Positions 3,819 through 56,055 of a stretch of 64,000 nt of DNA are shown piece by piece (position 1 is the first letter of the stretch; each line of letters starts with the position of its first letter). Position numbers and translations under genes: made by a program. The stretch comes from Planctomycetota bacterium (GTDB lineage: Bacteria; Planctomycetota; PLA2), in NCBI GenBank assembly GCA_021776735.1, contig JAJFFH010000042.1:8767-72766 (forward strand), in the 5' to 3' direction. The notes beneath the pieces are model-generated. The model made no database searches. It was not told the origin of the DNA and saw only the letters and a list, made by a program, of their open reading frames with translations.

Positions 3819-6800
3819 TCAGCGCGGTCGCGCGGGCAGCTTCACCTCGATCGGCGCGCCCGGTTTCAGGTCGTGCAGGTAGCGCTGATAGGCAAAGGTC
3901 GCGTCGACTTTGAGCTCGGCGTAGATCTGATGGAGCACCGTCGGGCGCCCCAGCAGGACAAACCAACCCTCCGTGTTGGACTTCGTCTCCGCGAGCTTGT
4001 CGCCGGTCTTGGTGCGCAGCACGATGCGAACCCCCGGCGCCACGCGTCCGTCTGCAAACCGCACTACGCCGGCGAACTCCGCGCCTTTCTCGAGCCGTAG
4101 CGTGACCATGCCCCGACCGGGCCTCGCCTCGACGGGCGCCGGCCCCACGAGCCCTGCGGAGCCGCCGGTCACCCTGATGCGGAAGCGCCGGCGCGCCAAC
4201 CGCTCGAAGCGGACCTTCCCGTCGCGGCCGGTCGTGCCACGCTGCGCCTGCGGATCGGGCCGGGGAAACCGAAGCGTGTTGTGCGCCTCGACCCGCACGC
4301 CGGCGACCGGCTTGCCCGCGGGATCGACCACGCGCACCGTCAGCGTACGGTCGCGCGGCATCGCGCCGGTCCGCACGGTGATGCCGCTTGCCGGCGCGCG
4401 CACGCCGGGCGCCGCGCCGTAGACGGCGAGCGTTTCGGTGGACGGATGCGGGCGAGTGCCGTCGATCGCGATGTCCACGGTTTCGCCGCTCCGGAGCGAC
4501 AGCGCGAACCGACCCTGCCCGTCGGTCGTCGCGCGTGCACGCGGCCGGCCGGTCGCGGGGTCGTAGCCGACGACGAGCACCGCGCCGAGCGGCTCGCCAT
4601 TCGGCCCGAGCACGCGTCCCTGCACCCTGACCGCCTTCTCCAGAACAATCGTGATTTCTTCTTCCGACGGCACGACACGCTTTTCATGCCCGGCGAAGTG
4701 CGGCGTCCGACCCGGGTAGACGTCGATGTCGTAGGGCCGATACTCGAGCCCGTTCACGATCGCGTGGCCCGAAGGGTCGGTCTCGGCGTGATGGCGCTGC
4801 GCCACGCGCACGTGTGCACCCGCGACCGCATCGCCGTCCGTATCCACGACTCGGACTCGAAGCATGGCCGCAACAGGCACGTCCACCTCGAATCCGGAAA
4901 CCGCGCCATCGATCTCGACGTTGTGGCGCACGGCGGGGCGCCCGAACGGATGGACGGCAAGTTCGTACGAACCCGGTCCCAGATCGACGAACCGGAACCG
5001 GCCCAGGTCGTCGGTCCGCCGTCGCTCGATCGTCCCGTAGAACGCTCCTAGATGGTGCGCCTCGAGCAATCGCAGTTCTAGGCGCACGCGCGCCCGCGGC
5101 ACGGAAGCCCCCGTAACGCGCCCAGCCAGCGACGACGGCACCGGTAGACGGATGTCGCCCACCATCACGCGCCCGGCCCGTTCGGGATGCGGCGAAAAAT
5201 CGACCAGCTTGCGCCCGTGCCCCGCCGCTTGCACGACGAGCGTGTGCGCCAGATCGCGCCGAAGGCTCGTCAACACGAACAGGCCACGCGCGTCCGTCCG
5301 GGCATGCCGCGAATCGATGTGCTGCATGACGTCGTCATGCCGGCTCGCCATCGCGACGACCCGCGCCCCGGCCAGGGGACGACCGCCCGCGTCCAGCACC
5401 CGTCCGCTGCACTCGTCGCCTTCGTGCAACAGGAAATCGATCGCGGCCCGCGCGCCCGCATGCTTCTGCGCGGTCCCGAACCCGTCCGCGAACGCGAACA
5501 GGATCGGCGCGCGCGTCCGCAACTCGTAGTGCCCCGACGCATCCGTCAACACCGAGCGCCTGAGTTCCCAACCCTCGCCGACCCGCGCGCCGACGATCAG
5601 ACGACCGTTCGCACCGCGCACAAACCCGGTCACGAGCCGTCCGGCAAGCGGCCGCAGTTCCACACGCCCCGGCACATGCGCTGTCGCGGTCGCGATCCCG
5701 CCAAGGGGATGCCGCGCCGTGACCGTCACGGGACCGACCGGCAGCTGCAAGACCGCGCGTCCGGTCTTGTCCGCATGTGCCTGCACCGAAGCATGGGGAA
5801 GCAAACGGACGGCGATGTCCGCGCCCTGGACGGTCTGTACGACGAGTTCGCCCGCCGCACGGCGCAAGACGATCCGCACGCGCTCGCCCGCCTGACAGGG
5901 CTGCGCGACTTCGGCGGGATAACCGTCCGCCGCAACCCGCAGCGTCGCGCGCGCACCCCGGGACAACCGCAGCCGGAACCGCCCCACCGAGTCCGTCACG
6001 CTGTGCGGGCCGGCCTCGGGAGCGCCGCCGTGTAGGAGCGCCGCGCGGCTGAACGGCAAGGTCGTAGACACGCGCGCGCCGACGATCGGCTGACCATCGC
6101 CGTCCACAACCACACCGAACAGGTCACGCTCACGATCGGGCGCAGGCGACGCCGTAGTCGCGCCATCGACGCGCTTCTCCGGTGTCGTGTTCACGGGATC
6201 GGCTCCGTTGTCGGACGCGGTCCGCTCGGCCGTACGCTCCTGTCGCTCCGCAGGCTTGTCGCCGTCTTTCCACAACCACAGCGCCCCCACCGCGAGCACC
6301 CCCGCCGCGACGAGCGCAACACGCAGCGACATCGCGGACAAGAACACGGGCCACGGACGCGGGCGAACAGCAAGCGGCAAGAGCGCAAGCTGCCAGCGCG
6401 CGCGGTCGCCATGGGTGGCGTCGAGCCGCTCGCGCAGCATCCCCAGGGCCTTTTGCACACGCGAACGCACGGTGGACGCGGGCACCCCCTGCCGCTTGGC
6501 AATCTCGGCCGCAGAGCAGTCCTCCAAAAAACGCAGGAACACGGTCTCGCGGTACGGCTCCGGCAGCTCGCGCACGGCGCGGGCGACGGATTCCTGGATC
6601 TCGAGCCGCTCCGCGACCTCGTCCGGGCGCGCCGGGCCAGCCGAACCGGCCAAAGACATCGCCGTCCGTTCCTGACGTACGCGTCGTCGCCCCTCCGAGC
6701 GCCACTGCATCTTCACGAGATTGCGCAGCGTGCCGGCGAGATAGCCTCGCAGCGAGGTGCGCGGCGGCGGCGCCCGCAACGCGGCCACCATGGCGTCCTG

Positions 6801-7005: not shown

Positions 7006-8520
7006 CTACTTCAACTGCTTGAGGGCTTGGGCGCAGCGCTTGCCGCTGCGGTGTTCCGGGGACTTTTTGACCACCGCTTCGTGCAGCGCGATGGCCTGCG
7101 CGCGGCGTTGCGGGTTCTTGTCCGCGAGCACCGTCTTCAGCGACCGTGCGTACAGGTCGTTGGACGCGTAGACCGTCAGGCAAAACGCCAGCGCGCGGTA
7201 GTACGGATCAAACCACGACTCGTCCTTGACCAGCCCGACGAGGTTGTCGAAAAGGCGCGGATTGTCGGTCGTCTCCAGGGTCTCGCGCGTCCACTTCTTC
7301 CAGCGCTCCTTGAAGTACGTTGTCGCGACTTGACTTGCGGGGCGCACATGGCCGGCGACATTCTCGCCGTACAACTTGGCGATCCACTCAAACAACTCGT
7401 CCTCGGGCGGGTGGCCGCGCCTGTAGGCGAGCTGATACATCCGCAGCGCCAGGGCCGGTTCCCTGAGCTTGCGCAGCCGGCGGGCCGCGGCGAGAGGAAC
7501 GGACGGCGATGTTGCGTAGCGGCGCGCGACCTTGTGGCAGTTCTCGAAAGGCTTGTCCGACTCGGCGGCTTCCTCGGCCTCGAGCTCCGGCACGCGCTTG
7601 CGCAACGGCTCCAGGAACGAACGGCGCTTCATCTCTGTGCGCAGCCACGCCAGCGCCTCGCGGCCGCTCTTTTGACGCAGCCCCTCGAGCCGACGGTCCG
7701 CGGCCTCCAGCGCGAACGCGCGCAGGCCCTTGTGTCCCGGTTCCTCGGCGAGCCCGCCGGCCGCGATGTCGAGTGCGCTCGCCGGATCAGATGCCGCCCG
7801 CGCTTCGTCCAGAGCGGTCTCGCCCGCGCTCGGCCGCAGTCCGAAAAACAGCGCGGCTCCGACAGCCGCCACGATGACGACCGCGGCGATCGCAATCACA
7901 GCGCGTCGGTTTCCCCCGGCGTCCACCCGATCCCGAAACCCGGTGATGACCGGCCCGCGCGGCGTGAGGCGCACGCCCGCGCGCACCCGCTGGCGCAGCG
8001 GACTGTTGTCGGGCTGCACGACGGAGAACACCTTCACGGGATACGGAATACCCTTGAACGTGTGCTCCCCGGCCGAGGCGGCGGGCGCCTCCTTGCGGTT
8101 CATCGTGAGATACACGGCTTCGGTGAAATAGACCTCACCGGGCTCGGCGATGGCCTCGAGCCGCGCCGCGATGTTGACCGGCTCGCCGAGGATGTCACCG
8201 TCGAGAAGCTCCACATCGCCGGAGTTGATCGCCACCCGAACGTGCAACCGTTCCTGCTCCGCGACCGTGCCGTTGTGCTGGCGCAGCACTTCCTGCACGG
8301 CGACCCCGCACATCACGGCGTTGGTCGAACTGTCGAAGCGGACCAGGAACGCGTCCCCGATCTCCTTGACGACCGTCCCCCCGAAGTGCCGAAAGACCGG
8401 CTGCAGCAGGTGCGCGTGCTGTTCCAGCAGGGTATTCAGATCGTCCCGACTCGAATCCGAGACCCGGGCCGTGAAGCCCTGGATGTCGGTGAACATGATC
8501 GTGAGATGCCGCGTCGCCAC
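7006..8520 (-). CDS. class III adenylate/guanylate cyclase with TM segment and C-terminal helical domain
   Basis: IMFTDIQGFTA...GDAFLVRF...EPVNIAARLE catalytic motifs. Confidence 0.85.
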   Translation of the reverse strand: MATRHLTIMFTDIQGFTARVSDSSRDDLNTLLEQHAHLLQPVFRHFGGTVVKEIGDAFLVRFDSSTNAVMCGVAVQEVLRQHNGTVAEQERLHVRVAINSGDVELLDGDILGEPVNIAARLEAIAEPGEVYFTEAVYLTMNRKEAPAASAGEHTFKGIPYPVKVFSVVQPDNSPLRQRVRAGVRLTPRGPVITGFRDRVDAGGNRRAVIAIAAVVIVAAVGAALFFGLRPSAGETALDEARAASDPASALDIAAGGLAEEPGHKGLRAFALEAADRRLEGLRQKSGREALAWLRTEMKRRSFLEPLRKRVPELEAEEAAESDKPFENCHKVARRYATSPSVPLAAARRLRKLREPALALRMYQLAYRRGHPPEDELFEWIAKLYGENVAGHVRPASQVATTYFKERWKKWTRETLETTDNPRLFDNLVGLVKDESWFDPYYRALAFCLTVYASNDLYARSLKTVLADKNPQRRAQAIALHEAVVKKSPEHRSGKRCAQALKQLK

Positions 8521-8602: not shown

Positions 8603-9148
8603 CTATCGCCAATCGACGAGGTCGATCATCACCGCGTTCTTTGGACAATAGCGCTCGCCGTCCAGATAGCCGTCGAGATCGTCTTCCACGTCGGATGGCA
8701 GGCCATCGCACGGGCCCACGGCGTCGTCGGCAGCAATGATCGCGAAGTCCTCGTTGTCGAGATGCCAGGTCCACGGTCCGTTGTGGTCGTCCTGCCCACC
8801 GCCTTCCACGACGAATCCGTCGGGGATGCCATCGGTCACGCCGTCCCAGAGATCCAGCAGTTCGTCGATGCCGTCTTCGTCCGTCACCCAGACGCTGAAC
8901 AACTCGCCCTCGACGTCGAACGTCGCGACGACGCCGCCCTCAAGATAGATCGGACCCGGGAAGGGACCCGGCACCGGTACGGGTACGGGCACCGGAACGG
9001 GAACGGGGACGGGTGCCGGCCCCGGACCGCCGCCACCACCGTCAACCGGTATGACGACCTCGTCGTTCGAGCCGGTCGGCAGCGTCGTCTTGCCGGAGCC
9101 GCACGCGACCAGACCGAGAGCCAAAGCGATCGCAGCCAAGCAGCGCAT
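8603..9148 (-). CDS. lipoprotein with PV-repeat linker
   Basis: Internal start MRCLAAIALALGLVACGS (lipobox LVAC); PVPVPVPVPVPVPG repeat; acidic C-terminus. The longer 288-aa ORF has an R-rich N-terminal extension judged spurious. Confidence 0.55.
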   Translation of the reverse strand: MRCLAAIALALGLVACGSGKTTLPTGSNDEVVIPVDGGGGGPGPAPVPVPVPVPVPVPVPGPFPGPIYLEGGVVATFDVEGELFSVWVTDEDGIDELLDLWDGVTDGIPDGFVVEGGGQDDHNGPWTWHLDNEDFAIIAADDAVGPCDGLPSDVEDDLDGYLDGERYCPKNAVMIDLVDWR

Positions 9149-9426
9149 GGCGGGTTCTCCTGTTGCCGAGTCCGCGCGAGGCGTGGCACCGTCCGGCGCG
9201 CGGATGTATTCGGGCATAGGGATCGTTGGCGCACTTCCGGACCCGCAAGACGGCTGTTTTGCGGGGGTCTTGCGCCGTTTTGGAGCGCTTGTTGCGTCTT
9301 CGCGTCGATTGCGGGTGAAGGTGTCACCCGAAAGAATCGCCGTCCGTGTGCTGACTCGGCTCGACCCGGTTATCTTGGCGGCTGGCGGTGCGCCCCTAAC
9401 GGCAGCACATCTACCAGGAGGTCTCC

Positions 9427-10521
9427 ATGCGGTTTGTTGTTTTGGTCTTGGCTTTGGTCGCGTTCGCACCGGTTGTCGCGGCGCAAAGTCTCACGCCGGG
9501 CGCGGACGTACCCACGCTCGAGATCGAGAAGTGGGTCAAGGGCGACGCGTTCAAGTTCGAGAAGGGCAAGGTCTACGTCGTCGAGTTCTGGGCGACGTGG
9601 TGCGGGCCGTGCATCGCGAGCATGCCGCACCTGAGCGAGCTGCAGGAGCACTACGGCGATGTCACGTTCGTCGGGGTCACGAAAGAGGATCCGAACAACA
9701 GCCTCGCCGCCGTCGAGGAGATGGTCAGGGACAAGGGGCCCGGGATGGGCTACACCGTCGCCTGGGACGCGGCGGGCAAGACGTACGACAACTTCATGAC
9801 CGCGTCGGGGTCGCGCGGCATTCCAACGTCGTTCATCGTCGACCAGAACTCAAAGATCGCGTACATCGGGCATCCGATGGGACTCGACATTCCGCTCAAG
9901 ATGGTCGTCGCCGGCAAATGGGATCCGGCCAAGGCGCAGGAAATCATGGCGCCGATCAACGAGCGCATCCGCGACGCCGTCATGAAGGGCCGCGAGGATC
10001 CGCAGGCGGGCGTCGCGGCGATCGACGCGATCGTGAAGGACACCCCCGAGCTGGCGAACATGCTCGATCAGTTCAAGAATGCATTCCTGCTCAAGGCCAA
10101 GATGTGGGACGCGTACGATGCCCACGCCAAGAAGGCCGTCGCCAAGGCGATCAAGTACCGCAACCCGCAGACGCTCAACCAGGTTGCCTGGACAATCGTC
10201 GATCCGGCCGGCGAGATCGAGAAAAAGAACCTCGATCTGGCGCTGCGCGCCGCCCAAAAGGGCGTGGAGTTCACGCACGAAAAGGACGCCGCGATCCTCG
10301 ACACACTCGCGCGCGTGTGGTTCTTGAAGGCCAAGTTCGACAAGGCGGTCAAGCTCCAGGAGCAGGCCGTCGCGCTCCAGGTCGAAACGCTCAACAAAGC
10401 CAAGAAGAGCGGCGGCGCCAAGGCCGCCGAGCAACACCTCGGGTTGTTGATGGACCTCAAGAAAACGCTCGCCGAGTTCAAGGCGAAGGCCGGCGCGGGC
10501 GATGCCAAGAAGGTCGGCTAG
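9427..10521 (+). CDS. TlpA/ResA-family periplasmic thiol:disulfide oxidoreductase with C-terminal helical extension
   Basis: Signal peptide, WATWCGPC active site, GGAGG RBS 8 nt upstream. Confidence 0.85.
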   Translation: MRFVVLVLALVAFAPVVAAQSLTPGADVPTLEIEKWVKGDAFKFEKGKVYVVEFWATWCGPCIASMPHLSELQEHYGDVTFVGVTKEDPNNSLAAVEEMVRDKGPGMGYTVAWDAAGKTYDNFMTASGSRGIPTSFIVDQNSKIAYIGHPMGLDIPLKMVVAGKWDPAKAQEIMAPINERIRDAVMKGREDPQAGVAAIDAIVKDTPELANMLDQFKNAFLLKAKMWDAYDAHAKKAVAKAIKYRNPQTLNQVAWTIVDPAGEIEKKNLDLALRAAQKGVEFTHEKDAAILDTLARVWFLKAKFDKAVKLQEQAVALQVETLNKAKKSGGAKAAEQHLGLLMDLKKTLAEFKAKAGAGDAKKVG

Positions 10522-12224: not shown

Positions 12225-12269
12225 TCGGGTCCGTTCCGGAAAAGGGGATCGGCAGAAACAGCGAAAAAA

Positions 12270-38126: not shown

Positions 38127-38606
38127 TCAGGAAACGAGCCGGTCCAGGATCGCCAAGTAGGCAGCCGCCAGTCCGCCCCCCAGCGCCGCAATCAGCACGA
38201 AGCAGGTCACGACCCACTTCTTGGTCGCAACCGCCGCCGTGACGACTCCGGCATCTACTCCGAGACCGGCCTTCGCCTCGCCCGCCAGCAGGACCACAAG
38301 GGCCGTCGGGCCGAGTCGCCGGCGCAGCTCCGCGAGCCCACGCCGAACGCGCGCCTTGGCGGCGGCCTCCGAGACACGCTGGGCCTCCGCAACCTCACGG
38401 AATGTGCGTCCGGTGAGATAGCGTGTTTCGCAAAGGGCGGAGAAGTCGATCCCACGATCGCCGGAGAGACCGCTTGGCAACTCGTGCTGGCGCCGGACCC
38501 GGTCCCAGAGCCCAGTACGCTGCTCCTGACGGGGCTCGCGGGCGCGGGCCTTTTGTGGCGCCTCCGCCGCAAGATGTAGCCGGACCCACCAACGGGCGAC
38601 AGCCAA
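38127..38606 (-). CDS. ECF sigma region-4 plus TM fragment (possible remnant or anti-sigma-like protein)
   Basis: ETRYLTGRTFREVAEAQRVSEAAAKARVRRGLAELRRRL (sigma4 HTH) followed by two hydrophobic helices; no sigma2 region. Confidence 0.4.
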   Translation of the reverse strand: MAVARWWVRLHLAAEAPQKARAREPRQEQRTGLWDRVRRQHELPSGLSGDRGIDFSALCETRYLTGRTFREVAEAQRVSEAAAKARVRRGLAELRRRLGPTALVVLLAGEAKAGLGVDAGVVTAAVATKKWVVTCFVLIAALGGGLAAAYLAILDRLVS

Positions 38607-40704: not shown

Positions 40705-43700
40705 TCAGCGCGCGCGTTCGAGACGCACTTCGATCGCCCGCGGCTGGCCCGGTTCGAGCGTGACCGTGCGCGTCTTCGTCCGGAAGCCCTCGGCGGCGAT
40801 CGAAAGCTGCACCGGCCCGAGCGGCAGGAACGGCTTGCGCAGGATCCCATCGCCTCCGGTACGGGAGCAGCCGTGCCCCTCCGGCTCCCGCCATGGCATG
40901 GTCGAGGAGTCCATCGGAGCAAGGGCCGGGCACGTCCACGTCAATTCGGCGTTCGCCAGGGGCCGGGATCGGTCGTCGACGACACGAATGGTGAGCGGCG
41001 CCGGCGCTGCGAGCTGTACCGCGACCTCGTTCGTCACGCCGCCCTCCACATCGACCGAGTGCACCGCAAACGGATGCCGCGGCGACAGTACGCACACCGC
41101 GTATCGTCCCGGCCGCAACAGCCACACGGTCGAGTGCCCCCGTTGGTTCGTCAGCGTGCCAGGGAACCCGGTCTCGCGCCCGGGCGGCAGCGCGTACACG
41201 GCAGCCCAGCGCACCGCGTTGCCGAGCGGGTCCGTCACTTTGGCCGACACGCGCCCTTCATCGCCCAGACGGATCCCGCCGAGGTCGACCGTCTTGCCCG
41301 CCGTGACCCGCAACGGCTCGGAGAGAAACGGCGCATGACTCTCCGCCGCGATTTCGATCACCCACTTCCCGGGCGGGACCGCGGTCAAGAAGGTACCGCT
41401 CTCGCTTTCAATGTCCTCGACGTTTTCCTCGACCCGCACCAGCTTCGACATCCGGTACAGCGCCACGACGTAGCTCGTCAACGGCAGGCCGGTGCGTTTC
41501 GACCGGACGCGTCCCTTCACGTACCCGCCGGCGAACGGCACAACAAGCGTTACGTCCCGCCCGCCGGCCTCGACGGTCCAGGGTTCGAACGCGGGATCAA
41601 ACTGGAGAGCGAGGTCGGTGCGGCTGACGCCGACCTTGTACAGGCCGGGCAACAGGCTCCGGAACGTGAACGTGCCGTCGCGGCGCACCTCATTCGGCCC
41701 GAACGCTTCGCCCGCATAGTCGCGGTAGGGCTGCTTCGCATCCGAGCTGACGATCATCACGTACCGACCGCGAACCGGCTCGCCCGCGGGCATGACAACG
41801 CGCCCGGTGATCGACTTGCACTCCCGCACCTCGAGTACGGTGGTGCCGGACGCTTCGGAGCCGGCCTCCACCTCCACGCTCGGGCTGCGGTTGCCGTCGC
41901 GATCGAACGCGACCAGCCACGCGGCTCCGACTCGCAAGCCGCGGATCTCGAACGAACCGTCCGGCAGGATGGCTGAGGACTTGCCGCCCGTCGAATCCAC
42001 GCGACCGGCTCGAACGGGGTTGCCGTCCGGGCCCAACACCCGCCCCTTGACCGTGCAACGCCCTGCTCCCTTGCGTGTCCCGACGTCGAGCTCTTGACCC
42101 GGCTCGACTCGCACGCCCGGGCCGGGCTGCGAAAAGAAGTGGGTATCCGACTGGAGAAGCACGAAGATTTCGGACGCATTCTGTAGCGCGAACGGTCCCA
42201 GCCTGAATCGACCCTCCTTGTTCGAGTACGCCACGGTGTCAACCCACCGGTCCTCGCGTAACACGACGCTCGCGCGAACTCCGGCGACCGGCTGGCCCCT
42301 TTCGTCGGTGACGCGGCCCGTGATCGTCGTCGGGGACGAGAGCACGATGTCGATTCCGGTCTCGACGTCGCCGGACGGCAGGTTCAACGCGATCGGACCT
42401 CCCCACCCGAGGCCCGGTCCGAAGTAGCCAGGCGCGAAGCCATCGGCTTCGGCTCGAATATAGGCCTCCCATGGGGGGATAGCCGGGAGCCGATAGCGTC
42501 CGTTCGCATCGGAGTGCACGACAGTGACGCGCCGGCCCTGTACATGCACGCGAGCGCCGGCGACCGGGTTGCCGTCCGGATCGGTAACTCGTCCTTCCAC
42601 TACGCCGCCCGGGTCCAGCTCCAACCTCACGTCGGCCGGGGCCGCGGGGACCGTTTTCGAAGCCGACACGAAGCCGAGCTGGTGGGCGAAGACGGTGACG
42701 GAGCCGCGCACCGCGCCGAGGCGCGCGCGCCCTTCTGCGTCGGTCGTCCGGGGGGCGAAGCTCTCGTCGTCCTCGTCCTCGCCCGTTGCGCTGAACCAGC
42801 CCGTCACGATCGCGCCGGCGACAGGTTCGCCGTCGACAGTTGTGACGACCACCGCGAGCGGAGTACCGCGGTTCAGGACCATCCGCACGTCCCCGGCGGC
42901 CTGCGTATCGACCCAGCGCTCCGCGGTGAAGCACTCCGGGTGCGAGACCCGCAAGAGTACGTAGCGCGACGGCCCTGCGTTCGCTTCGAAATCGCCGGAC
43001 GGGCCCGTGCGAACGGCGGCTCCGTCCAAGGCTCGCACCTGCGCGCCTTCGAGCGGCTGGTCCCGGTCGTCCACGACGACACCGCGCATCGGGCCGACGT
43101 TCCGCTCTGCATCGCCCGCGACTGCCTTAGACAACAAGGCGGCGCCGCGGTCTATGCGCATGCGCGGCCGCTCGTCCGCGGTGTGCGGCACCAGCACGAT
43201 CGTGAGTACCGTGACTGCCGCCAAGAGTCCCATCACGAGACGGGCCCCGCCGAAAGCGACCGCGGGTGCAGCGGACGCCCGGGAGGACGCGAGAAGCCCG
43301 ACCAGCGCGGCGCACCACGCACCGCGCCCGCGAAACACCCGGTCGAGCGCCCCGCGCAACTTCGCAAGCCCGCGCTGCTGGCGGCTCTTGACCGTTTCGA
43401 CGGAGACGCCCAGCCTCTTCGCGATGCGACGCGGCGGAAGATCCTCGAAGAACCGCATCACGATGACCGTGCGGTGCTCCCGATCGAGTTTACGTACGGC
43501 TTCGACGAGGCGCCGCTGGGCCTCGAGGCGGGCTAGATCGTCCACCGTAGCCGGCACACCCTCGCTCTTTGCCCGCCTTCGCTCGCGCGCCGCGCGCCGT
43601 TCGCGGGAACGAAGCGAGACGCCGACACGATTCCGAACGACGCCGCGCAGCCACGCACGCAGCGAGCGCCGCGGCGCGTCCTGGTCCTCCATCGCGATGA

Positions 43701-43815
43701 CGAGAGCGTCCTGCGCAACATCGGCCGCCTCGTGTTCATCGAACAAGAGCCTCCGGGCGAGCGCGTGCACGAATCGCGAGTGCGCAACGAATTCGTCCGA
43801 CGTCGGGTCTGTCAT
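40705..43815 (-). CDS. ECF sigma-70 domain fused to TM helix and periplasmic carboxypeptidase-regulatory-like repeat array (paralog 2)
   Basis: MTDPTSDEFVAHSRFVHALARRLL..DVAQDALVIAM (sigma2), RTVIVMRFFEDLPPRRIAKRLGVSVETVKSRQQRGL (sigma4), TM helix, then GRVTDPDGNPVAGARV-type repeats. Confidence 0.8.
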   Translation of the reverse strand: MTDPTSDEFVAHSRFVHALARRLLFDEHEAADVAQDALVIAMEDQDAPRRSLRAWLRGVVRNRVGVSLRSRERRAARERRRAKSEGVPATVDDLARLEAQRRLVEAVRKLDREHRTVIVMRFFEDLPPRRIAKRLGVSVETVKSRQQRGLAKLRGALDRVFRGRGAWCAALVGLLASSRASAAPAVAFGGARLVMGLLAAVTVLTIVLVPHTADERPRMRIDRGAALLSKAVAGDAERNVGPMRGVVVDDRDQPLEGAQVRALDGAAVRTGPSGDFEANAGPSRYVLLRVSHPECFTAERWVDTQAAGDVRMVLNRGTPLAVVVTTVDGEPVAGAIVTGWFSATGEDEDDESFAPRTTDAEGRARLGAVRGSVTVFAHQLGFVSASKTVPAAPADVRLELDPGGVVEGRVTDPDGNPVAGARVHVQGRRVTVVHSDANGRYRLPAIPPWEAYIRAEADGFAPGYFGPGLGWGGPIALNLPSGDVETGIDIVLSSPTTITGRVTDERGQPVAGVRASVVLREDRWVDTVAYSNKEGRFRLGPFALQNASEIFVLLQSDTHFFSQPGPGVRVEPGQELDVGTRKGAGRCTVKGRVLGPDGNPVRAGRVDSTGGKSSAILPDGSFEIRGLRVGAAWLVAFDRDGNRSPSVEVEAGSEASGTTVLEVRECKSITGRVVMPAGEPVRGRYVMIVSSDAKQPYRDYAGEAFGPNEVRRDGTFTFRSLLPGLYKVGVSRTDLALQFDPAFEPWTVEAGGRDVTLVVPFAGGYVKGRVRSKRTGLPLTSYVVALYRMSKLVRVEENVEDIESESGTFLTAVPPGKWVIEIAAESHAPFLSEPLRVTAGKTVDLGGIRLGDEGRVSAKVTDPLGNAVRWAAVYALPPGRETGFPGTLTNQRGHSTVWLLRPGRYAVCVLSPRHPFAVHSVDVEGGVTNEVAVQLAAPAPLTIRVVDDRSRPLANAELTWTCPALAPMDSSTMPWREPEGHGCSRTGGDGILRKPFLPLGPVQLSIAAEGFRTKTRTVTLEPGQPRAIEVRLERAR

Positions 43816-45191: not shown

Positions 45192-45551
45192 ATGAACTAC
45201 TTCAAATCCGCAATGGTCAATCAACAGGCCAATCAGAACGGCATTCAGACGATCACGCTGGAGACCGGAACGAACTCCTCCGCAAGCGCGCTCGTTCTCG
45301 TGTCACCGATGGTCCTCGTCACGGCAATCGGGCCTGTGGCAGTGGATATCGAATGCGACGGCGTGACTTGGGAAACCTACGGTCAGGCGGCCGAGACCGG
45401 CTACTTCCGGCTGCCAGCCGTGCTGTTCGCGGCTGCACCGAACAACGGCGCGTACCAATTGCAGTTCAGAGTTTCCATGACCAGCTCCACCTTCGACGAC
45501 AGCTGCTGGATCACCGCCAGCGTCGTCGAACTCGAACAGCCCGACAGGTAA
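45192..45551 (+). CDS. hypothetical protein P2 (single-domain paralog of P1), identical C-terminal tail ASVVELEQPDR
   Basis: Lies 9 nt after P1; its last 33 nt are 31/33 identical to the P1 3' end. Confidence 0.6.
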   Translation: MNYFKSAMVNQQANQNGIQTITLETGTNSSASALVLVSPMVLVTAIGPVAVDIECDGVTWETYGQAAETGYFRLPAVLFAAAPNNGAYQLQFRVSMTSSTFDDSCWITASVVELEQPDR

Positions 45552-49045: not shown

Positions 49046-49611
49046 GCCGCGCCACCCGTCATAAGCTGGTAGAGGCGCGCCCGCGCGTAGGACCACTCGC
49101 GGTGGACGGTGCGCCGCGAACGCTTTAGCGCGAGCGCGGTCTCGTCCACGCTCAGGCCCGCGAAGAAGCGGAGCCGGACGACACGGGCGAGGCCCTCGTC
49201 TTCCGTCGCGAGCTTTGCCAGGGCGTCGTCCACCGCGAGGATGTCGATGGCGTCGCCCTCCGACGCGAGGTCGATGAGGCCGAGGGGCAGCCGCGCGGCA
49301 CCGCCCCCCCGCTTGTCCCGGCCGCGCGCACGGGCGTGCTCGACGAGGATGCGGCGCATCGCCTCCGCGGCAGCGCCATAGAAGTGCGCGCGGTTCTCCC
49401 AGGCGACATCGGGCGCGTGGACGAGGCGAAGGTAAGCCTCATGGACAAGCGCGGTCGTCTGCAGCGTGTGATCGGCACGCTCCTTGGCCATGCGGTGTTG
49501 CGCGATCTTGCGGAGCTCGCCGTAGACGGCGTCGAAGAGCGGCGCGGAGACATCGCGCCCGGTCGTTGCGTCGCGCAACAGATTGGTCACGTCCTCGGGG
49601 CCGGCCGTCAT
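49042..49611 (-). CDS. ECF sigma factor, TIGR02999 (kinase-associated) type
   Basis: LFDAVYGELRKIAQHRMAKERADHTLQTTALVHEAYLRL and C-terminal ETALALKRSRRTVHREW; start placed at MTAGPEDVTNLL. Confidence 0.8.
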   Translation of the reverse strand: MTAGPEDVTNLLRDATTGRDVSAPLFDAVYGELRKIAQHRMAKERADHTLQTTALVHEAYLRLVHAPDVAWENRAHFYGAAAEAMRRILVEHARARGRDKRGGGAARLPLGLIDLASEGDAIDILAVDDALAKLATEDEGLARVVRLRFFAGLSVDETALALKRSRRTVHREWSYARARLYQLMTGGAA

Positions 49612-49915
49612 CGCGCGAATGATAGCGAATCCGCCCCGAAACGGATCGCCGCAGGGTGTGGGGACAGGCGGATCGCGACCGGACAACGAGGGCCGCGAGT
49701 TCACAGGAGATCGTCTCCGTCATCTTCCTCGGGGTCGAATCAATGCCCCCACTGTGCCGCCCCCGGCGCGCGGCTGCGAATGATCGACTTCCCGGGACCG
49801 CTCATGCTCGACCTGAGGCGCGTCCAGCGGACCGCCTTCGACCACGGACAGCGATGCGGCGCCCTGTTTCGAGAGACCGACGCAGACTCAGCCAGTAGAA
49901 TCCCGAGTTCGAGAC

Positions 49916-51158: not shown

Positions 51159-52103
51159 TTACGGGGATCGAGTTCCAGGAGGAAGCGATTCAATGATGTT
51201 CCACGCCTTCTCGCACGGCCCGACCCGTAATCGCCGGAGAGCCAACGCCAGAGCAGCTATATTGCGTTTGCGCTTCGCGCACTCCGATGCCAGGTCTAGT
51301 AGTGCCGCGGGTACCGCATGCCTGTCAGGATCCCTTGAATGTTGTCCCTTGCGCACTGATGTCACTAGCCAACTGAAGCGCTCCTCGCCCGTCGCGAGGG
51401 TTGACGCCTCCCAGTAGGCGCGAGCACTGGACGCGGCCGGGCGCAAACTTCGCCGGTAGATCCCAAGCGAGCGCATGCGGGCTGCTCGAGCTCGTCTGCG
51501 ATCCCGATCGTTGAGAGAGTCCTCTCTCAACCAACTCGCCGCTGTCAACTCCAGCCCAACGGTGGCGAGCAGCGTGATATACCGCAGATTGCGGTCGCCG
51601 CGTAGTCGCCCGGCGAGCCTCCGAGCGCAGCGCAGGAGATACTCTCGCGGCGCGTCTCGACGCTTGGCTGCCCCGGAGAGCGCCTTGAGCGACTTGCGCG
51701 TTTCGCCTGTCCGGGAGTAGGCGTCGCCAAGATATGTGAGAGCGATCCCGGTCTCCTTCTTCGCAATGGCCTCGACAAGCACCTCGATCGCTCTCGTCGA
51801 GTTTCGTGCCCGAAGATAAAGGTAGCCGGCGCTCTCCAGCGATTCGTGAGTCCGAGTGCGACCCGGGAGGTCCATGATCCAGTCCGCTGCAGCCGCCGGA
51901 GTCTTGAGCACGCCCCGCATCCGAACCACTTCGCGAACGACGCCGGCAACGTGCGTGGAGCCGGCCGCGATCGTCGACGTCATCAGCGAGCGCCCGTCCG
52001 AGGCACGTTCCACGGCCTCCCGGTATGCTCCGCGCCGGATTTGCTCGTCGAGGCTCTCCGCTTGCCAGCCGACGAGCAGGAGGACCAGTGTCGCTACTTG
52101 CAA
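51159..52103 (-). CDS. hypothetical helical protein
   Basis: Overlaps the upstream gene stop; lower GC; last gene of the putative 5-gene minus-strand operon. Confidence 0.45.
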   Translation of the reverse strand: MQVATLVLLLVGWQAESLDEQIRRGAYREAVERASDGRSLMTSTIAAGSTHVAGVVREVVRMRGVLKTPAAAADWIMDLPGRTRTHESLESAGYLYLRARNSTRAIEVLVEAIAKKETGIALTYLGDAYSRTGETRKSLKALSGAAKRRDAPREYLLRCARRLAGRLRGDRNLRYITLLATVGLELTAASWLREDSLNDRDRRRARAARMRSLGIYRRSLRPAASSARAYWEASTLATGEERFSWLVTSVRKGQHSRDPDRHAVPAALLDLASECAKRKRNIAALALALRRLRVGPCEKAWNIIESLPPGTRSP

Positions 52104-53092
52104 AAGTGCGCCATCCAGTTCCGCGCGTCCGCGCCAAGGTCCGTACCGACAAGGTCGGCGAGGGCGGCGCGCACCTCCGGCCCGTCGACAGGATGACCGA
52201 GAGCGTCAAGGAGTGCCTGCAGGTGAGACGTGTCGCCCGATCGAAGTGCGCGAAATGCCGTCCTCAAGCGCGGGTCGTGCGGCGGTGGGACCTTGGCGGG
52301 CTTTCCCTTCAGTCGCTGCTTCCACCACGCACCGCGCTTGGGATCGATCGCTGCCGCAATTTCGAGATAGGCGGGACCGTCTTCCACGTAGAGCCGGACG
52401 AGGGCGAATGCGGATCGCGGAGACTCCTTCAGCGCCGCGAACCACTTCGGGCTCGGCGCCGCCTCACAGAGGAGGAGCAGCACCGCGGGTGCGAGTGGAT
52501 CGTCACGCTTCAGGTACTCGATCGGACTCAGACCTCCGCGAAGTTCTCGCATGACCCCGCGTCGGGTTCCGCTTGCGAGTGCTAGGGCCCGAGCAGGCGC
52601 GACCTTGACGAGCGCGAGCTCGCACGCTCTCTGCAGTTCACCCTCCTCTATCGCGAACTCTTTGCGCCAGAGCAATGTTCCGTCGGGAGCGAGGATGACG
52701 TGTTGGGGGGAGATAATCTCGTTGTCGTTCGACCAACGCTGCAGCGAGAGATTCAGAACATCACGGTGAGTTCCGCAATCCGTGGATCCATAACGCGCGC
52801 ACGTTCCGTCTCGATCGTGATCGTGGGGATTCGCAACCAAGCAGATCATCGGCCGAGCCGCCGCAACAAGACCGTGGCTCGCGTACGCGTTCGACATCGC
52901 AGCGTCACGGCCGCGGGCACGGTCAAGCGCGTTGATCACGATCAGGATTGGCCGCCCTTCATTCTGTGCTCGCGTAACACTACCCCTAAGTCCACGGGCC
53001 CACTGGATGCGCTTTGCGGACTCCGTGGCTCCGATTTGGTGCGGTGATAGGAGCGCACATAGGATCAGGGAGCACGCAAGCCGCGTTGTCAT
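52094..53092 (-). CDS. secreted thioredoxin-fold-like protein lacking CxxC (noncatalytic paralog) with helical C-terminal domain
   Basis: Signal peptide; RPILIVINALDRARG...QHVILAPDGTLLWRKE resembles the Thioredoxin_7 scaffold with the CxxC replaced; ATGA overlap with ECF fusion 3. Confidence 0.45.
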   Translation of the reverse strand: MTTRLACSLILCALLSPHQIGATESAKRIQWARGLRGSVTRAQNEGRPILIVINALDRARGRDAAMSNAYASHGLVAAARPMICLVANPHDHDRDGTCARYGSTDCGTHRDVLNLSLQRWSNDNEIISPQHVILAPDGTLLWRKEFAIEEGELQRACELALVKVAPARALALASGTRRGVMRELRGGLSPIEYLKRDDPLAPAVLLLLCEAAPSPKWFAALKESPRSAFALVRLYVEDGPAYLEIAAAIDPKRGAWWKQRLKGKPAKVPPPHDPRLRTAFRALRSGDTSHLQALLDALGHPVDGPEVRAALADLVGTDLGADARNWMAHFCK

Positions 53093-56055
53093 CGCTCGCC
53101 CTCAAACCGAAACCGTAGCAGCGCTGCCACGCCCGACTTGACGGTGATCGGCGCACTTCCGTCCTGTAACCACCGACCGTCCCGGAGGAACCAGAGAGTC
53201 GCGCTGTACTTGCCCGGCCCAACCTTGGCGAACTCGAACTTACCTGCCGCGTCCGCCTTCACCGGCGCGAGGCTGCGATCGACCGCTCGCGACATCAGGG
53301 TTGACTCGCTCATGTCATACTTTGGTACAAGTCGAATACGTGCCGACCCACCGAGGCCAACATCGACTCTCCCGTGAACGGTGCCAGGCGATTCGAACTC
53401 CACCCTTACTGACGTCGTTCGATTTGCGGCTGCCACGTACGGAACCGCTCTCCATCCATGACCGCGCGCTCGAACCAGAACTACGCCGGCCCCAGGTGTC
53501 ATGGGTCGCGTTGCCCGGCCGTCATACTTGACGAAACCGGATCCCTGTGGAATCCCCAGTCCGCGCTCCGTAGTCACCGCGTACTCCAAGGATTTCTCAT
53601 CCGCGCCGCGGACGATCAACTTCAGCCTCGCTGGACCACTGGGCAGTCGAATAGCGGCCTCGGAATCCAAGGCAACTGGCACTCGCAGCGCGGCGACGAT
53701 CGGGTCCTTCTTCGCCGAGAGTGAGTACGGACCAGGAGCCAGGTCGTCGAACCGAAACGCACCATCTGCAGAAGTCGAAGTCATTCCCGGGCTCGGTCCG
53801 TGAAGTGTGACGGTGAGTCCGGGGACCGGCTCACCGGCCCCGTCAAGAACTCGGCCGTACACCGATCTACCACCTCCCCGAGCGACGCGAATACGCCTGA
53901 ACTCTCCGGCTCCAATCGCAAAGTGCCGGCGGAGTGAGCCCGCGCAAACGAGATACTCGCCGGCGGGAAGTCGATCGAATTCAACGTGCCCTTCTTTGTC
54001 TGTCGTCGATAGAGATTCGTGCTCCAACGCGAACAGAAAGGCCTCGTAGCGGCGGGGCTCGTCTTCGCGTGCTTTCACTCGGCGCGTGAGCGACACGGTG
54101 GCGTCAGAGACCGGGTGACCGGAGACCTCGTGAACTTCCAGAGAGACGCGACTGGATTCTGTGCCGACGAGTTCCACCGACACTCGCGTTCCGGGCCGGA
54201 CGTCAAGGCCATCGAGGAGGGCCGGAGCGCTGCCCGGTATCAGCGCAGCCAACGTACTCGCCCCACTGGACGAAACATGGGACGCGCCTATCAGCTTGAC
54301 TTCAACTTCAAAGCGGCCGTTCGGATCCGACCACCCGTGAACGACCGGGAGGCCAACCAGCGCTCTCGCAAAGATGCGCTGACGGAATAGTAGGAGGGGG
54401 GCATCGACAACCTCATCGCCACGCGAGTTCCGAACCACGCCATTGATGTACATCGAATGTCGCAACCGAACTTCTGCGCCTCGGACTGGCAGCAGCTCGT
54501 ACCCCGGCGCAGAGACGAAACACGTCGAGTATTCACGCTGTACCGGGTATCGGATCAGCCCATCGGCGTTCGCAACAAGTCGCCGTCGCGCAATCTCCTG
54601 TCCGTACACCGCGCCGCGGCCGGCTGAACTCGCAACGATGAGATACGCATCTGGTATGGGTGCACCAGAAGTGGCCGAGACCGCGCGCACGGTACGGGTC
54701 CTGACTTCTTGAAGAACGATCTCGATCATGCCGCGGTCCGTGAGATAGCTCTGTTCCACATAGGCCAGGCCCGCCTGCAGTGGGACAATGGAGAGGCGAA
54801 ATCGATGTGAGGGGGCCGACGGAAGGCGCGCGAGCCCTCGTGCATCGGTCACTGTCTCAGCGAAGACCTGGCGAGCGACACCGCCAAGATGCAACGTCAC
54901 GACTTGGATTGTCACGCGCTCCACCGGTCTTCCGCTCGTCTCACGCACACGAATCTCGACAGGATTCTGTTCGCGCACGGTAATCGTCGATTCGTCGCCC
55001 GGGCGGATTGACCCGACAAACGCGGGCGCGAATCCCTTGGCGCTGACGGTCACACCGTGCCGAGCGCCACCCGTTCGCTTGAAGGAAAACTGCCCATCCG
55101 AACCTGTCACAGTCTCGAACGGCCTCCGCCTTTCGCGTTCCCGTCTCAACACTGCGGCTGGCGCGACAAGTGATCCGCCGCGGACCTCCGTGGAGAGATA
55201 GACCAACCGGACTCGGGCCCCAGGCACCCCTTTCCCAGCTTCGTCGACAACCCGTCCCTCATAGCCACTCGTAGCGGGGTCAGTTTCGTCCCTCGCAGGA
55301 GGAGCGATCACAGTTTCCGCGTGTGTCGGGTCACGGCCGGGAGTTCGCGTTCGCGCCCCGTAGTCTGCAACGCGCTCCACTTCTGCTCCGCCGCTGACCC
55401 ACATCGCAACTCCCACGCCGAGGACTCCGAACACGGCTGCGCCCAGTGCACCGAGCCGGAACCATGCCGAGTCAGTCACGGCGGGACTCGTACGCACGGT
55501 CTCGCGCGAAGGCAGCCCCCAGAGTGCGACGACAGGCAACCAAGCGTGACGCTTACCGTCGTAAGCGCGATCAAGTGCATCTCGCAGCTCCGAAAGCGCG
55601 CGGTATAGCCTTGACTCCACCGTCCGAACCGAGATCGACTCTGATTGCGCAATTTCCGTAGGTGTGCGGCCGTCAAGGTAGCGGTAGACGATCATCGACT
55701 GATAGGGTTCTCGGAGCGAGTAGACGGCCGCAACCACTCGCTTCTGCAGTTCGATCTTCGCCGCTACATCTTGGGTCGACGGGGACGTTGCGCTCTGTGC
55801 GACAGCCAGCTCGCGACGGCGCCGCCTTCCCCGTGTCCGATGGGAGCGCTTGGCCAAGTTTCGCGCGATCGTTGCCAACCAACCGCGAACGTTGGTCTGG
55901 GTCTTCAGGGGTCGCTCGAGGGCGACTAGAATCGTCTCGTGCGCCAAGTCTTCCGCGTCGTTGAAGTCGACGACGAGTCCGCGGGCGAGCCTTCGCACGA
56001 ACTCGAAGTGATTCCCGAGTTCCTCGGGCGGGAGCAGCGGCCGCGGTCCATTCAT
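53089..56055 (-). CDS. ECF sigma-70 domain fused to TM helix and periplasmic carboxypeptidase-regulatory-like repeat array (paralog 3)
   Basis: DLAHETILVAL (sigma2), QSMIVYRYLDGRTPTEIAQSESISVRTVESRLYRAL (sigma4), TM helix, GRVVDEAGKGVPGARV-type repeats. Confidence 0.8.
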   Translation of the reverse strand: MNGPRPLLPPEELGNHFEFVRRLARGLVVDFNDAEDLAHETILVALERPLKTQTNVRGWLATIARNLAKRSHRTRGRRRRRELAVAQSATSPSTQDVAAKIELQKRVVAAVYSLREPYQSMIVYRYLDGRTPTEIAQSESISVRTVESRLYRALSELRDALDRAYDGKRHAWLPVVALWGLPSRETVRTSPAVTDSAWFRLGALGAAVFGVLGVGVAMWVSGGAEVERVADYGARTRTPGRDPTHAETVIAPPARDETDPATSGYEGRVVDEAGKGVPGARVRLVYLSTEVRGGSLVAPAAVLRRERERRRPFETVTGSDGQFSFKRTGGARHGVTVSAKGFAPAFVGSIRPGDESTITVREQNPVEIRVRETSGRPVERVTIQVVTLHLGGVARQVFAETVTDARGLARLPSAPSHRFRLSIVPLQAGLAYVEQSYLTDRGMIEIVLQEVRTRTVRAVSATSGAPIPDAYLIVASSAGRGAVYGQEIARRRLVANADGLIRYPVQREYSTCFVSAPGYELLPVRGAEVRLRHSMYINGVVRNSRGDEVVDAPLLLFRQRIFARALVGLPVVHGWSDPNGRFEVEVKLIGASHVSSSGASTLAALIPGSAPALLDGLDVRPGTRVSVELVGTESSRVSLEVHEVSGHPVSDATVSLTRRVKAREDEPRRYEAFLFALEHESLSTTDKEGHVEFDRLPAGEYLVCAGSLRRHFAIGAGEFRRIRVARGGGRSVYGRVLDGAGEPVPGLTVTLHGPSPGMTSTSADGAFRFDDLAPGPYSLSAKKDPIVAALRVPVALDSEAAIRLPSGPARLKLIVRGADEKSLEYAVTTERGLGIPQGSGFVKYDGRATRPMTPGAGVVLVRARGHGWRAVPYVAAANRTTSVRVEFESPGTVHGRVDVGLGGSARIRLVPKYDMSESTLMSRAVDRSLAPVKADAAGKFEFAKVGPGKYSATLWFLRDGRWLQDGSAPITVKSGVAALLRFRFEGER

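What the first reader, a model, noticed from the sequence alone, without database searches (positions are those of the whole stretch)
3819..56055. Three paralogous ~1000-aa one-component ECF sigma fusions (sigma2-sigma4-TM-periplasmic carboxypeptidase-regulatory-like repeat array) in one 64-kb window
Genes 3819..6902, 40705..43815 and 53089..56055 share the same unusual architecture. Each has a complete ECF sigma domain at the N-terminus, one TM helix around residue 190-215, then 700+ aa of repeated GRVxDxxGxPxxGARV beta-sandwich (CarbopepD_reg-like) units predicted periplasmic. A sigma factor permanently tethered to the membrane with its own giant sensor domain would act like a ToxR/CadC-style one-component system, or would need regulated proteolysis for release. 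A related sigma4-TM stub sits at 38127..38606. Paralog 3 is preceded by a stand-alone 580-aa protein made of the same repeats. Paralog 1 sits in an apparent operon with a nucleotidyl cyclase and PqiA-like membrane proteins.
Basis: partly seen in the sequence, partly recalled or inferred. Interest (0 to 1): 0.75.

Follow-up and report, generated by a model that had tools for sequence, protein, structure and literature searches.

The report
Membrane-anchored ECF sigma factors with Ig-like rods
The window encodes three old, diverged copies of an uncharacterised but widespread protein family in which a complete alternative sigma factor is fused, through one membrane helix, to a long outward-facing rod of 8-9 beta-sandwich domains, so sensor and transcription factor appear to be one polypeptide.

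Summary
ORFs 3819-6902, 40705-43815 and 53089-56055 (all minus strand) each encode a full ECF sigma core (sigma2 and sigma4 above Pfam and NCBIfam cut-offs). A conserved post-sigma4 motif follows, then one N-in/C-out TM helix. The ectodomain is tiled end to end by 8-9 transthyretin-like CarboxypepD_reg domains.

It is a real family. There are 382 50%-identity representatives at E<=1e-30. Of the 150 closest sigma cores, 110 sit in proteins of 600 aa or more. 48 of 54 sampled carry PF13620. At least 370 copies occur in GTDB species genomes of Planctomycetota and Myxococcota, including cultured Minicystis rosea.

No anti-sigma domain lies between sigma4 and the membrane, and no neighbouring gene is conserved. 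Some Myxococcota members end in a PDZ or DsbA domain, so the rod looks like a stalk for a distal sensor.

Membrane-tethered ECF sigmas are already known as a concept (ECF57, ECF52/53, IutY). This family lacks ECF57's defining cysteine pair, and I found no description of it.

Most likely mechanism, inferred rather than shown: an anchored pro-sigma released by regulated proteolysis.

The "PqiA-like" claim is unsupported. The sigma4-TM stub is a truncated family fragment.

The parts
3819..6902 (-). Paralogue 1, 1027 aa: ECF sigma core, conserved motif, TM helix and 9 CarboxypepD_reg repeats
   Evidence: ORF and translation. Pfam and NCBIfam. Repeat tiling. AF2 of residues 1-260.
6684..6872 (-). 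Paralogue 1 sigma2 (residues 11-73)
   Evidence: PF04542, 47.1 bits against a cut-off of 24. AF2 helices 6-86. Foldseek hits to SigH, SigL and sigmaE.
6429..6593 (-). Paralogue 1 sigma4 (residues 104-158)
   Evidence: PF08281, 48.9 bits against a cut-off of 25.7. AF2 helices 93-164.
6366..6425 (-). Family-specific post-sigma4 motif RLDxxHxGDRxAWxxALxPLA (residues 160-179)
   Evidence: W170 is invariant; G165, R167 and P176 are nearly invariant. Family statistics, n=218. Predicted helix 167-178. It lies outside the part that matches solved ECF sigmas.
6258..6332 (-). Paralogue 1 transmembrane helix (residues ~191-215)
   Evidence: Kyte-Doolittle peak at 186-204. AF2 helix 191-215. Positive-inside charge bias across the family.
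3831..6125 (-). Paralogue 1 ectodomain: 9 tandem transthyretin-like beta-sandwich repeats (residues 260-1024)
   Evidence: PF13620, 7 stretches, E=6e-56. Repeat HMM tiling.
40705..43815 (-). Paralogue 2, 1036 aa. Sigma2 at residues 11-73, sigma4 at 101-154, W167 motif, TM at ~187-209 (window 43189-43257), 9 repeats at residues 242-1034 (window 40714-43092). Stand-alone gene with a 548-nt upstream intergenic region.
   Evidence: Repeat unit 404-495 modelled at pLDDT 80.8 and matched to the carboxypeptidase D/N transthyretin-like domain and the SusC NTE domain.
53089..56055 (-). Paralogue 3, 988 aa. Sigma2 at residues 18-78, sigma4 at 109-158, TM at ~197-222 (window 55390-55467), 8 repeats at residues 265-987 (window 53095-55263).
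56120..57862 (-). Stand-alone secreted protein of 6 CarboxypepD_reg repeats with an N-terminal signal/anchor, 64 nt upstream of paralogue 3 on the same strand
   Evidence: PF13620 E=3e-25. Hydrophobic segment at residues 20-38. Repeats at residues 43-576. Similar stand-alone repeat proteins lie in the flanks of ~9 of 79 homologous loci.
38127..38606 (-). Truncated family fragment (sigma4.2, linker and TM only); probably a pseudogene remnant
   Evidence: Family N-terminal HMM positions 125-221, E=1e-8. Pfam sigma r4 below cut-off. TM at residues 121-139.
7006..8520 (-). Membrane-anchored class III nucleotidyl cyclase, 103 nt upstream of paralogue 1 on the same strand. The neighbourhood is specific to this genome.
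   Evidence: PF00211 E=2e-16. TM at residues 208-226. Not recurrent in 79 homologous loci.

Best explanation
SHOWN. Each gene encodes one polypeptide made of these parts:
- A canonical ECF (group 4) sigma factor with intact sigma2 and sigma4.
- A family-specific 20-residue helix, GDRxAWxxALxPLA.
- A 20-30-residue Pro/Ala/Gly linker.
- One N-in/C-out TM helix.
- An extracytoplasmic rod of 8-9 back-to-back transthyretin-like (CarboxypepD_reg) beta-sandwich domains.

The fusion defines a large family in Planctomycetota and Myxococcota. In that family the sigma core is the best-conserved part and the ectodomain is variable. No anti-sigma domain and no conserved partner gene exist.

INFERRED. These are self-contained signal transducers ('one-component' ECF systems). 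At rest the sigma is kept at the membrane, and possibly also held closed by the conserved juxta-sigma4 helix. An envelope signal acts on the rod or, in relatives, on a distal PDZ or DsbA module. That signal leads to trimming of the ectodomain by a site-1 protease, and then to intramembrane cleavage by a site-2 protease. A ~20-kDa soluble sigma is released, binds RNA polymerase and switches on a paralogue-specific regulon. The repeat array mainly acts as a rigid stalk that sets the distance of the sensing end from the inner membrane.
For: Sigma identity:
- Pfam and NCBIfam scores are above cut-off.
- A profile search of PDB sequences gives M. tuberculosis SigE at 1e-24 and B. subtilis SigW at 1.5e-22.
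- AF2 plus Foldseek returns ECF sigmas.
- The canonical motifs DDxxQ, WL..RN, EPYR and the TVRxR recognition helix are nearly invariant across 120 members.

Topology:
- There is a single TM segment.
- The six residues before the TM are 14% K+R and 1% D+E.
- The 40 residues after it are 15% D+E and 9.5% K+R.

No anti-sigma domain:
- Only ~31 residues lie between the invariant W and the TM.
- There is no FecR, zf-HC2 or RskA hit.

Family:
- 382 representatives at E<=1e-30, and 110 of the best 150 are 600 aa or longer.
- PF13620 is present in 48 of 54 sampled members.
- At least 370 loci in GTDB genomes of two phyla.

Modular sensor end:
- 4 of 10 scanned Myxococcota members, including Minicystis rosea, have a C-terminal PDZ.
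- DsbA-like domains are in L063 and P0032.

No conserved neighbour.

Precedent for release by proteolysis: IutY is cleaved by Prc and RseP; SCO4117/ECF52; and the prediction made for ECF57 (PMC8999054; 10.1101/2019.12.11.873521 supplement).
Against: - No cleavage, release or regulon was observed; all of that is inference.
- No site-1 or site-2 protease gene is linked. S41 peptidases occur next to only 2 of 30 putative operon partners. The rhomboid and LonC genes near the closest homologue are not recurrent.
- The TM helices are only moderately rich in helix breakers: Gly is 10% of TM residues, and 40% of helices contain GG, GxG or Pro.
- No autoregulatory promoter motif was found upstream of 78 family genes.
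- I could not read contacts or PAE of the AF2 model, so an autoinhibitory role for the conserved helix is untested.
Confidence: 0.55

Rival explanations
1. The sigma works while still tethered, in the manner of ToxR or CadC. The holoenzyme forms at the inner membrane. Ligand binding or oligomerisation of the rod switches the sigma between a closed and an open state, with no proteolysis.
For: A flexible 20-30-residue linker lies between the conserved helix and the TM. There is no linked protease. The conserved post-sigma4 helix could be a reversible latch.
Against: No sigma factor is known to act while membrane-anchored. Every experimentally studied TM-tethered ECF system (IutY, SCO4117) points to proteolytic release (PMC8999054). 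Several paralogues per genome would hold RNAP at the membrane.
Confidence: 0.2
2. These proteins are simply members of the already defined planctomycetal group ECF57, perhaps subgroup s3, for which a carboxypeptidase regulatory-like domain was noted. Nothing new is present beyond three more copies.
For: ECF57 is described as follows (10.1101/2019.12.11.873521 supplementary text and Table S2; PMC7826278):
- Planctomycetes-specific.
- A C-terminal extension with TM helices.
- ~5.3 copies per genome.
- 'Carboxypeptidase regulatory-like' conserved in ECF57s3.
- Release from the membrane proposed.
Against: ECF57 is defined by a completely conserved cysteine pair, one in sigma2 and one in sigma4. 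It also has ~2 TM helices and an N-terminus ~20 aa longer. Here no cysteine is conserved in the core: paralogues 2 and 3 have none, most of the 67 GTDB members have none in residues 1-170, and none appears in the conserved-column lists. There is one TM helix, sigma2 starts at residue ~10, and the family also occurs in Myxococcota.
Confidence: 0.2
3. The sigma domain is a relic or an adaptor. The protein is mainly an envelope structural or adhesin-like protein anchored by the TM helix, or a decoy that titrates RNAP or a regulator.
For: The ectodomain has no recognisable ligand-binding or catalytic domain in the window copies. Stand-alone secreted repeat proteins lie nearby.
Against: The sigma core is the most conserved part: 41-55% identity against ~25-30% for the whole length. 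Its canonical core-binding and DNA-binding motifs are nearly invariant. The ectodomain is exchangeable, including PDZ, DsbA and short versions.
Confidence: 0.05

Closest known systems
ECF57 (originally ECF01-Gob) of Planctomycetes
   Same: An ECF core fused to a long C-terminal extension that contains TM helix(es) and extracytoplasmic repeats. Multi-copy per genome. No anti-sigma gene. Release from the membrane has been proposed. A CarboxypepD_reg domain is noted for subgroup s3.
   Different: ECF57 has a fully conserved Cys pair in sigma2 and sigma4, ~2 TM helices, an N-terminus ~20 aa longer, and WD40 or homeodomain-like extensions. The present family has no conserved Cys and one TM helix. 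It has its own GDRxAWxxALxPL motif and CarboxypepD_reg arrays, and it spans Planctomycetota and Myxococcota.
IutY of Pseudomonas putida (ECF243 sigma/anti-sigma hybrid)
   Same: A single polypeptide with an N-terminal ECF sigma, one TM helix and a periplasmic domain. It is the experimentally shown case of activation by site-1 (Prc) and site-2 (RseP) proteolysis.
   Different: IutY carries a complete FecR-type anti-sigma domain between sigma4 and the TM, and it signals from a TonB-dependent receptor. Here there is no anti-sigma domain, no FecR domain and no receptor gene.
ECF52, ECF53 and ECF48 of Actinobacteria (e.g. SCO4117)
   Same: A sigma fused to TM helix(es) and an extracytoplasmic Pro-rich linker plus a carbohydrate-binding-type domain. 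Proteolytic activation has been proposed.
   Different: Those groups have a zinc-finger (ZAS) anti-sigma module before the TM. None is present here. The phylum and the ectodomain also differ.
ECF255 anti-sigma factors (Bacteroidetes), and RsgI-type anti-sigma factors with extracellular binding modules
   Same: Single-pass proteins that expose CarboxypepD_reg or other beta-sandwich modules outside the cell and control an ECF-type sigma inside.
   Different: There the sensor and the sigma are separate proteins linked by an anti-sigma domain. Here they are one chain.
ToxR/CadC membrane-bound one-component regulators
   Same: Cytoplasmic DNA-targeting domain, one TM helix and a periplasmic sensor in a single protein.
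   Different: The DNA-binding module there is an OmpR-type winged helix that recruits RNAP. Here it is a sigma subunit that must enter RNAP. This is an analogy only, not homology.

Membership tests
ECF (group 4) sigma-70 family | Sigma2 and sigma4 domains present, with no sigma1 or sigma3 | tested here: met
   PF04542 and PF08281 are above gathering scores. TIGR02937 scores 61-78 bits against a cut-off of 42.9. AF2 fold and Foldseek hits to ECF sigmas. PDB profile hits to SigE and SigW.
ECF57 | Completely conserved cysteine pair, one in sigma2 and one in sigma4 | tested here: not met
   No Cys column is conserved in 120- and 28-sequence alignments. Paralogues 2 and 3 have no Cys in the core. 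Most GTDB members have 0 Cys in residues 1-170.
ECF57 | C-terminal extension with TM helices (~2) and extracytoplasmic repeats | tested here: inconclusive
   An extension with a TM helix and repeats is present, but most members have one TM helix: 78 of 110 have one hydrophobic segment and 23 have two. The repeats are CarboxypepD_reg, not WD40.
ECF57 | Restricted to Planctomycetes | tested here: not met
   Members occur in Polyangia, Haliangiales, Kofleriaceae and Minicystis rosea.
ECF57 or any other ECF Hub group (e.g. ECF220, ECF216) | Score above the group's trusted threshold with the ECF Hub group HMM | not testable with these tools
   The ECF Hub HMMs are not available here. Only the published group descriptions could be read.
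Sigma/anti-sigma hybrids (IutY-type; ECF48/52/53) | A recognisable anti-sigma domain (FecR, or ZAS HxxxCxxC) between sigma4 and the TM helix | tested here: not met
   There is no FecR, zf-HC2 or RskA Pfam hit. Only ~31 residues lie between the invariant W and the TM, with no Cys/His motif.
CarboxypepD_reg (PF13620) / transthyretin-like beta-sandwich | Profile match above cut-off and a seven-strand beta-sandwich fold | tested here: met
   187, 204 and 120 bits against a cut-off of 32.3. AF2 of one repeat gives pLDDT 80.8. Foldseek matches carboxypeptidase D, N and M domains and the SusC NTE domain, with TM-scores of 0.6-0.72.
PqiA (claimed for the neighbours of paralogue 1) | Match to the PqiA profile and its multi-pass topology | tested here: not met
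   No Pfam family at E<=1 for 2486-3727 or 1744-2373. There are only 3 C-terminal hydrophobic segments and 1 N-terminal segment, respectively.
ToxR/CadC one-component regulators | OmpR-type winged-helix DNA-binding domain at the N-terminus | tested here: not met
   The N-terminus is a sigma factor and there is no Trans_reg_C hit. The resemblance is architectural only.

The most novel reading that the evidence does not exclude
These proteins would define a distinct, undescribed class of anti-sigma-less ECF sigma factors shared by Planctomycetota and Myxococcota. The conserved GDRxAWxxALxPL helix would be a built-in minimal anti-sigma latch. The 30-35-nm rod of Ig-like domains would be a periplasm-spanning ruler, or a mechanical or proteolytic bait. 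It would report the state of the outer envelope, or of a structure built from the co-encoded secreted repeat proteins, directly to RNA polymerase.
Probability: 0.25. Interest if true: 0.65.

Novelty: new variant of a known kind. Interest (0 to 1): 0.45.

Why it matters
ECF sigmas fused to their own sensors are the least understood branch of the 'third pillar' of bacterial signalling, and only one TM-tethered example (IutY) has been dissected.

This family is large: hundreds of 50%-identity clusters, several copies per genome, and two phyla known for complex envelopes and lifestyles. It has no anti-sigma domain at all, so it raises a clean question: is membrane tethering alone enough to silence a sigma factor?

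It has a cultured host, Minicystis rosea DSM 24000, which makes the question testable. If release is proteolytic, the family would also offer compact, orthogonal, single-gene surface-to-transcription switches for synthetic biology.

Tried and rejected
1. Conserved gene neighbourhood. I ran all-against-all BLASTP clustering of 731 ORFs from 79 loci plus the window. Only the fusion family itself recurs, plus a Ser/Thr kinase family in 9 loci. A Pfam scan of 30 putative operon partners gave heterogeneous results.

2. Protease linkage. Rhomboid and LonC genes sit near the closest homologue but are absent from all other loci and from the window.

3. Shared promoter. 5-mer enrichment upstream of 78 family genes shows only AT-rich intergenic bias. 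TGAAC lies 39 nt upstream of the paralogue 2 start and 67 nt upstream of the paralogue 1 start. This is too weak to count.

4. Sigma-70 promoter and terminator scans around all three genes are at or below the shuffle expectation.

5. The search for related loci with broad alignments (A1, A3) failed for lack of a conserved 7-mer. A narrower alignment (A4) worked.

6. Locating the source record by exact look-up. Paralogues 2 and 3 are in the protein collection, from one unnamed 73,241-bp NCBI contig, but the contig look-up found nothing. Assigning the organism to Planctomycetota therefore rests on the nearest homologues and on a DUF1572 gene.

7. Key papers (Jogler 2012; Wiegand 2020; Pinto, Liu and Mascher 2019) are not held.

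8. Gene-fusion artefact. Rejected because the same architecture recurs in hundreds of independent assemblies.
Full report
**1. Observation**

- Sigma core: Pfam finds Sigma70_r2 and Sigma70_r4_2 above gathering score at residues ~11-160 of each. NCBIfam's ECF superfamily model TIGR02937 is above its cut-off in all three.
- Repeats: CarboxypepD_reg (PF13620) scores E=6e-56, 3e-61 and 4e-35.
- Membrane helix: each protein has one strongly hydrophobic segment at about residues 185-220.
- Paralogy: the three are homologous but not recent duplicates. They share 32-34% identity over the sigma core, TM and first repeats. Each sigma core is closer to proteins of other genomes (45-55%) than to its window paralogues (35-43%).

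**2. Anatomy**

I modelled residues 1-260 of paralogue 1 with AlphaFold, using an alignment of 28 family N-termini. Mean pLDDT was 81.6. The model shows, in order:

- sigma2 (helices 6-86);
- sigma4 (helices 93-164);
- a further confident helix at 167-178;
- a disordered stretch at 183-189;
- a TM helix at 191-215.

Foldseek against the PDB returns only ECF sigmas: SigH, SigL, sigmaE, AlgU and SigW. A sequence profile of the family N-terminus hits M. tuberculosis SigE at 1e-24 and B. subtilis SigW at 1.5e-22. Those matches end at profile position ~161-168. The helix at 167-178 is therefore a family-specific addition.

Across 218 members the helix reads RLDxxHGGDRRAW-x-LALLPLA. G(-5) is 89% conserved, R(-3) 89%, L(+4) 83% and P(+6) 84%, counted from the tryptophan used as the anchor. 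That tryptophan is invariant in the alignments.

A variable Pro/Ala/Gly linker follows; the median distance from the W to the TM is 31 residues. Next come a basic residue and the TM helix. Charge distribution fits N-in/C-out: 14% K+R against 1% D+E before the helix, and 15% D+E against 9.5% K+R after it.

No FecR, zinc-finger or RskA anti-sigma domain is detected, and there is no room for a classical one.

**3. Ectodomain**

A repeat HMM trained iteratively on the window tiles the ectodomains with hardly any gaps:

| Protein | Repeats | Residues |
|---|---|---|
| Paralogue 1 | 9 | 260-1024 |
| Paralogue 2 | 9 | 242-1034 |
| Paralogue 3 | 8 | 265-987 |
| Neighbouring 580-aa protein | 6 | 43-576 |

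The E-values of that HMM are biased because it was trained on the same sequences. Pfam supports 7, 8, 2 and 2 units independently.

I modelled one unit (paralogue 2, residues 404-495) with the 32 window repeats as its alignment. It folds as a seven-strand beta sandwich with pLDDT 80.8. It matches the transthyretin-like domain of carboxypeptidases D, N and M and the N-terminal extension domain of SusC transporters.

The window copies therefore expose nothing but a beads-on-a-string rod. No C-terminal anchoring motif is visible in the translations.

**4. It is a family, not a local oddity**

- An exhaustive phmmer search with residues 1-230 of paralogue 1 finds 382 50%-identity representatives at E<=1e-30. 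The best 150 are 41-55% identical in the core, and 110 of them are 600 aa or longer. Nearly all have a hydrophobic segment at residues 166-283.
- Of 54 sampled long members, 54 have Sigma70_r4_2, 51 have Sigma70_r2 and 48 have CarboxypepD_reg.
The best 80 come from Planctomycetota MAGs (the majority) and Myxococcota: Polyangia, Haliangiales, Kofleriaceae and the cultured Minicystis rosea DSM 24000.
- Sixty-seven complete ORFs measure 383-1433 aa.
- Ten Myxococcota members were scanned. Seven carry the repeat array, four of these end in a PDZ domain (including Minicystis), and one carries a DsbA-like domain instead. PDZ and DsbA variants also appear among metagenomic hits.

The conserved unit is thus sigma core, motif and TM helix. 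The outside part is modular, as expected for a sensor, and the repeat array behaves like a stalk that can carry a distal module.

**5. Context**

BLASTP clustering of all ORFs in 79 loci shows no conserved neighbour. Only about a third of the genes have a possible operon partner on either side, and those partners are heterogeneous.

Two things do recur:
- further copies of the fusion in the flanks of 6 loci, plus a tandem pair next to the closest homologue;
- stand-alone secreted repeat proteins in the flanks of ~9 loci, as upstream of paralogue 3 in the window.

In the window, paralogue 1 follows a membrane-anchored nucleotidyl cyclase. Two unannotatable ORFs follow paralogue 1. The 'PqiA-like' label for them has no support, even at E<=1.

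Paralogue 2 stands alone. Paralogue 3 lies in a same-strand run of five ORFs of unknown function.

The stub at 38127-38606 is a truncated family fragment.

**6. Mechanism**

What is shown is the architecture, the topology signals, the conservation pattern, and the absence of an anti-sigma domain or a partner gene.

The best-supported inference is an anchored pro-sigma released by regulated proteolysis. Two lines support it:
- This is what was demonstrated for the sigma/anti-sigma hybrid IutY (Prc, then RseP). It was also proposed for SCO4117 (ECF52) and for ECF57 (PMC8999054; supplementary text of 10.1101/2019.12.11.873521).
- The closest solved relatives, SigW and SigE, are themselves controlled by intramembrane proteolysis of single-pass partners (established knowledge).

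The conserved post-sigma4 helix may be an internal latch, an interfacial helix or a protease determinant. I could not test this because model coordinates and PAE are not exposed.

The rival, action while tethered, is not excluded. A purely structural role is unlikely, because the sigma core is the most constrained part of the protein.

**7. Relation to what is known**

The concept is established. [quoted passage not shown]

ECF57 is defined by an invariant cysteine pair in sigma2 and sigma4, which this family lacks. It is also described with ~2 TM helices, a longer N-terminus and restriction to Planctomycetes.

ECF220 (Polyangiaceae; extension with ~1 TM helix and 'no Pfam domain') and ECF216s1 are other possible homes for the myxobacterial branch.

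None of the group descriptions I could read mentions a sigma fused to a CarboxypepD_reg array. Full-text searches found no paper on it. Assignment with the ECF Hub HMMs could not be done.

**8. Verdict**

This is a correct observation of a real, large and uncharacterised variant of a known kind of system. It is interesting mainly as a clean test case for anti-sigma-less, membrane-tethered sigma factors. It is not categorically new.

Noticed in passing
window 45557-49704 (minus strand): A second, different ECF system. ORF 49042-49704 matches the Planctomycete-type Sigma70_ECF family PF07638 (E=1e-51). It is followed immediately by a 1179-aa Ser/Thr kinase with AAA_16 and TPR regions. This is the known ECF-plus-kinase arrangement.
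   Followed up: no
window 32912-34309 (+) and 59789-60721 (+): Two ORFs without any Pfam hit are 68% identical over 310 aa (E=6e-157). They are a dispersed duplicate of unknown function 26 kb apart.
   Followed up: no
window 44364-45182 (+), 45192-45551 (+), 45559-45592: Two adjacent ORFs with no family match end in the same peptide, ASVVELEQPDR. It is encoded by a 38-nt direct repeat that is 95% identical (45144-45181 and 45513-45550). A 14-bp-stem hairpin with a T tract follows.
   Followed up: partly
loci L026, L036, L040, L064 (PDZ); L063 and protein P0032 (DsbA): Myxococcota relatives of the fusion carry a PDZ domain at the far end of the repeat rod, or a DsbA-like thioredoxin domain in place of the repeats. 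This suggests that the rod is a stalk for a distal sensor.
   Followed up: partly
locus L080 1589-15444: The closest homologues of paralogue 1 form a tandem pair (1090 and 1105 aa, with overlapping stop and start). They are flanked by a rhomboid protease and a LonC-like protease. Neither protease recurs in the other 79 loci.
   Followed up: yes
window 57813-59459, 52094-53092, 9427-10521: Weak thiol-redox hints lie around the fusions. The 548-aa ORF upstream of the paralogue 3 cluster begins with the C-terminal half of a thioredoxin-like fold (E=0.05), so its start may be miscalled. The ORF downstream of paralogue 3 has an N-terminal hydrophobic, signal-like start by eye. An AhpC/Redoxin protein lies near paralogue 1.
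   Followed up: no
window 20441-24978 (minus strand): An overlapping gene pair: a SWIM zinc-finger protein (629 aa) followed by a DUF6493/DUF7824/DUF7825 protein (883 aa).
   Followed up: no
window 8603-9469 (minus strand): A BP74_N-domain ORF with a (PV)n tract. Its long Arg/Pro-rich N-terminal part looks non-coding, so the real start is probably near residue 107.
   Followed up: no
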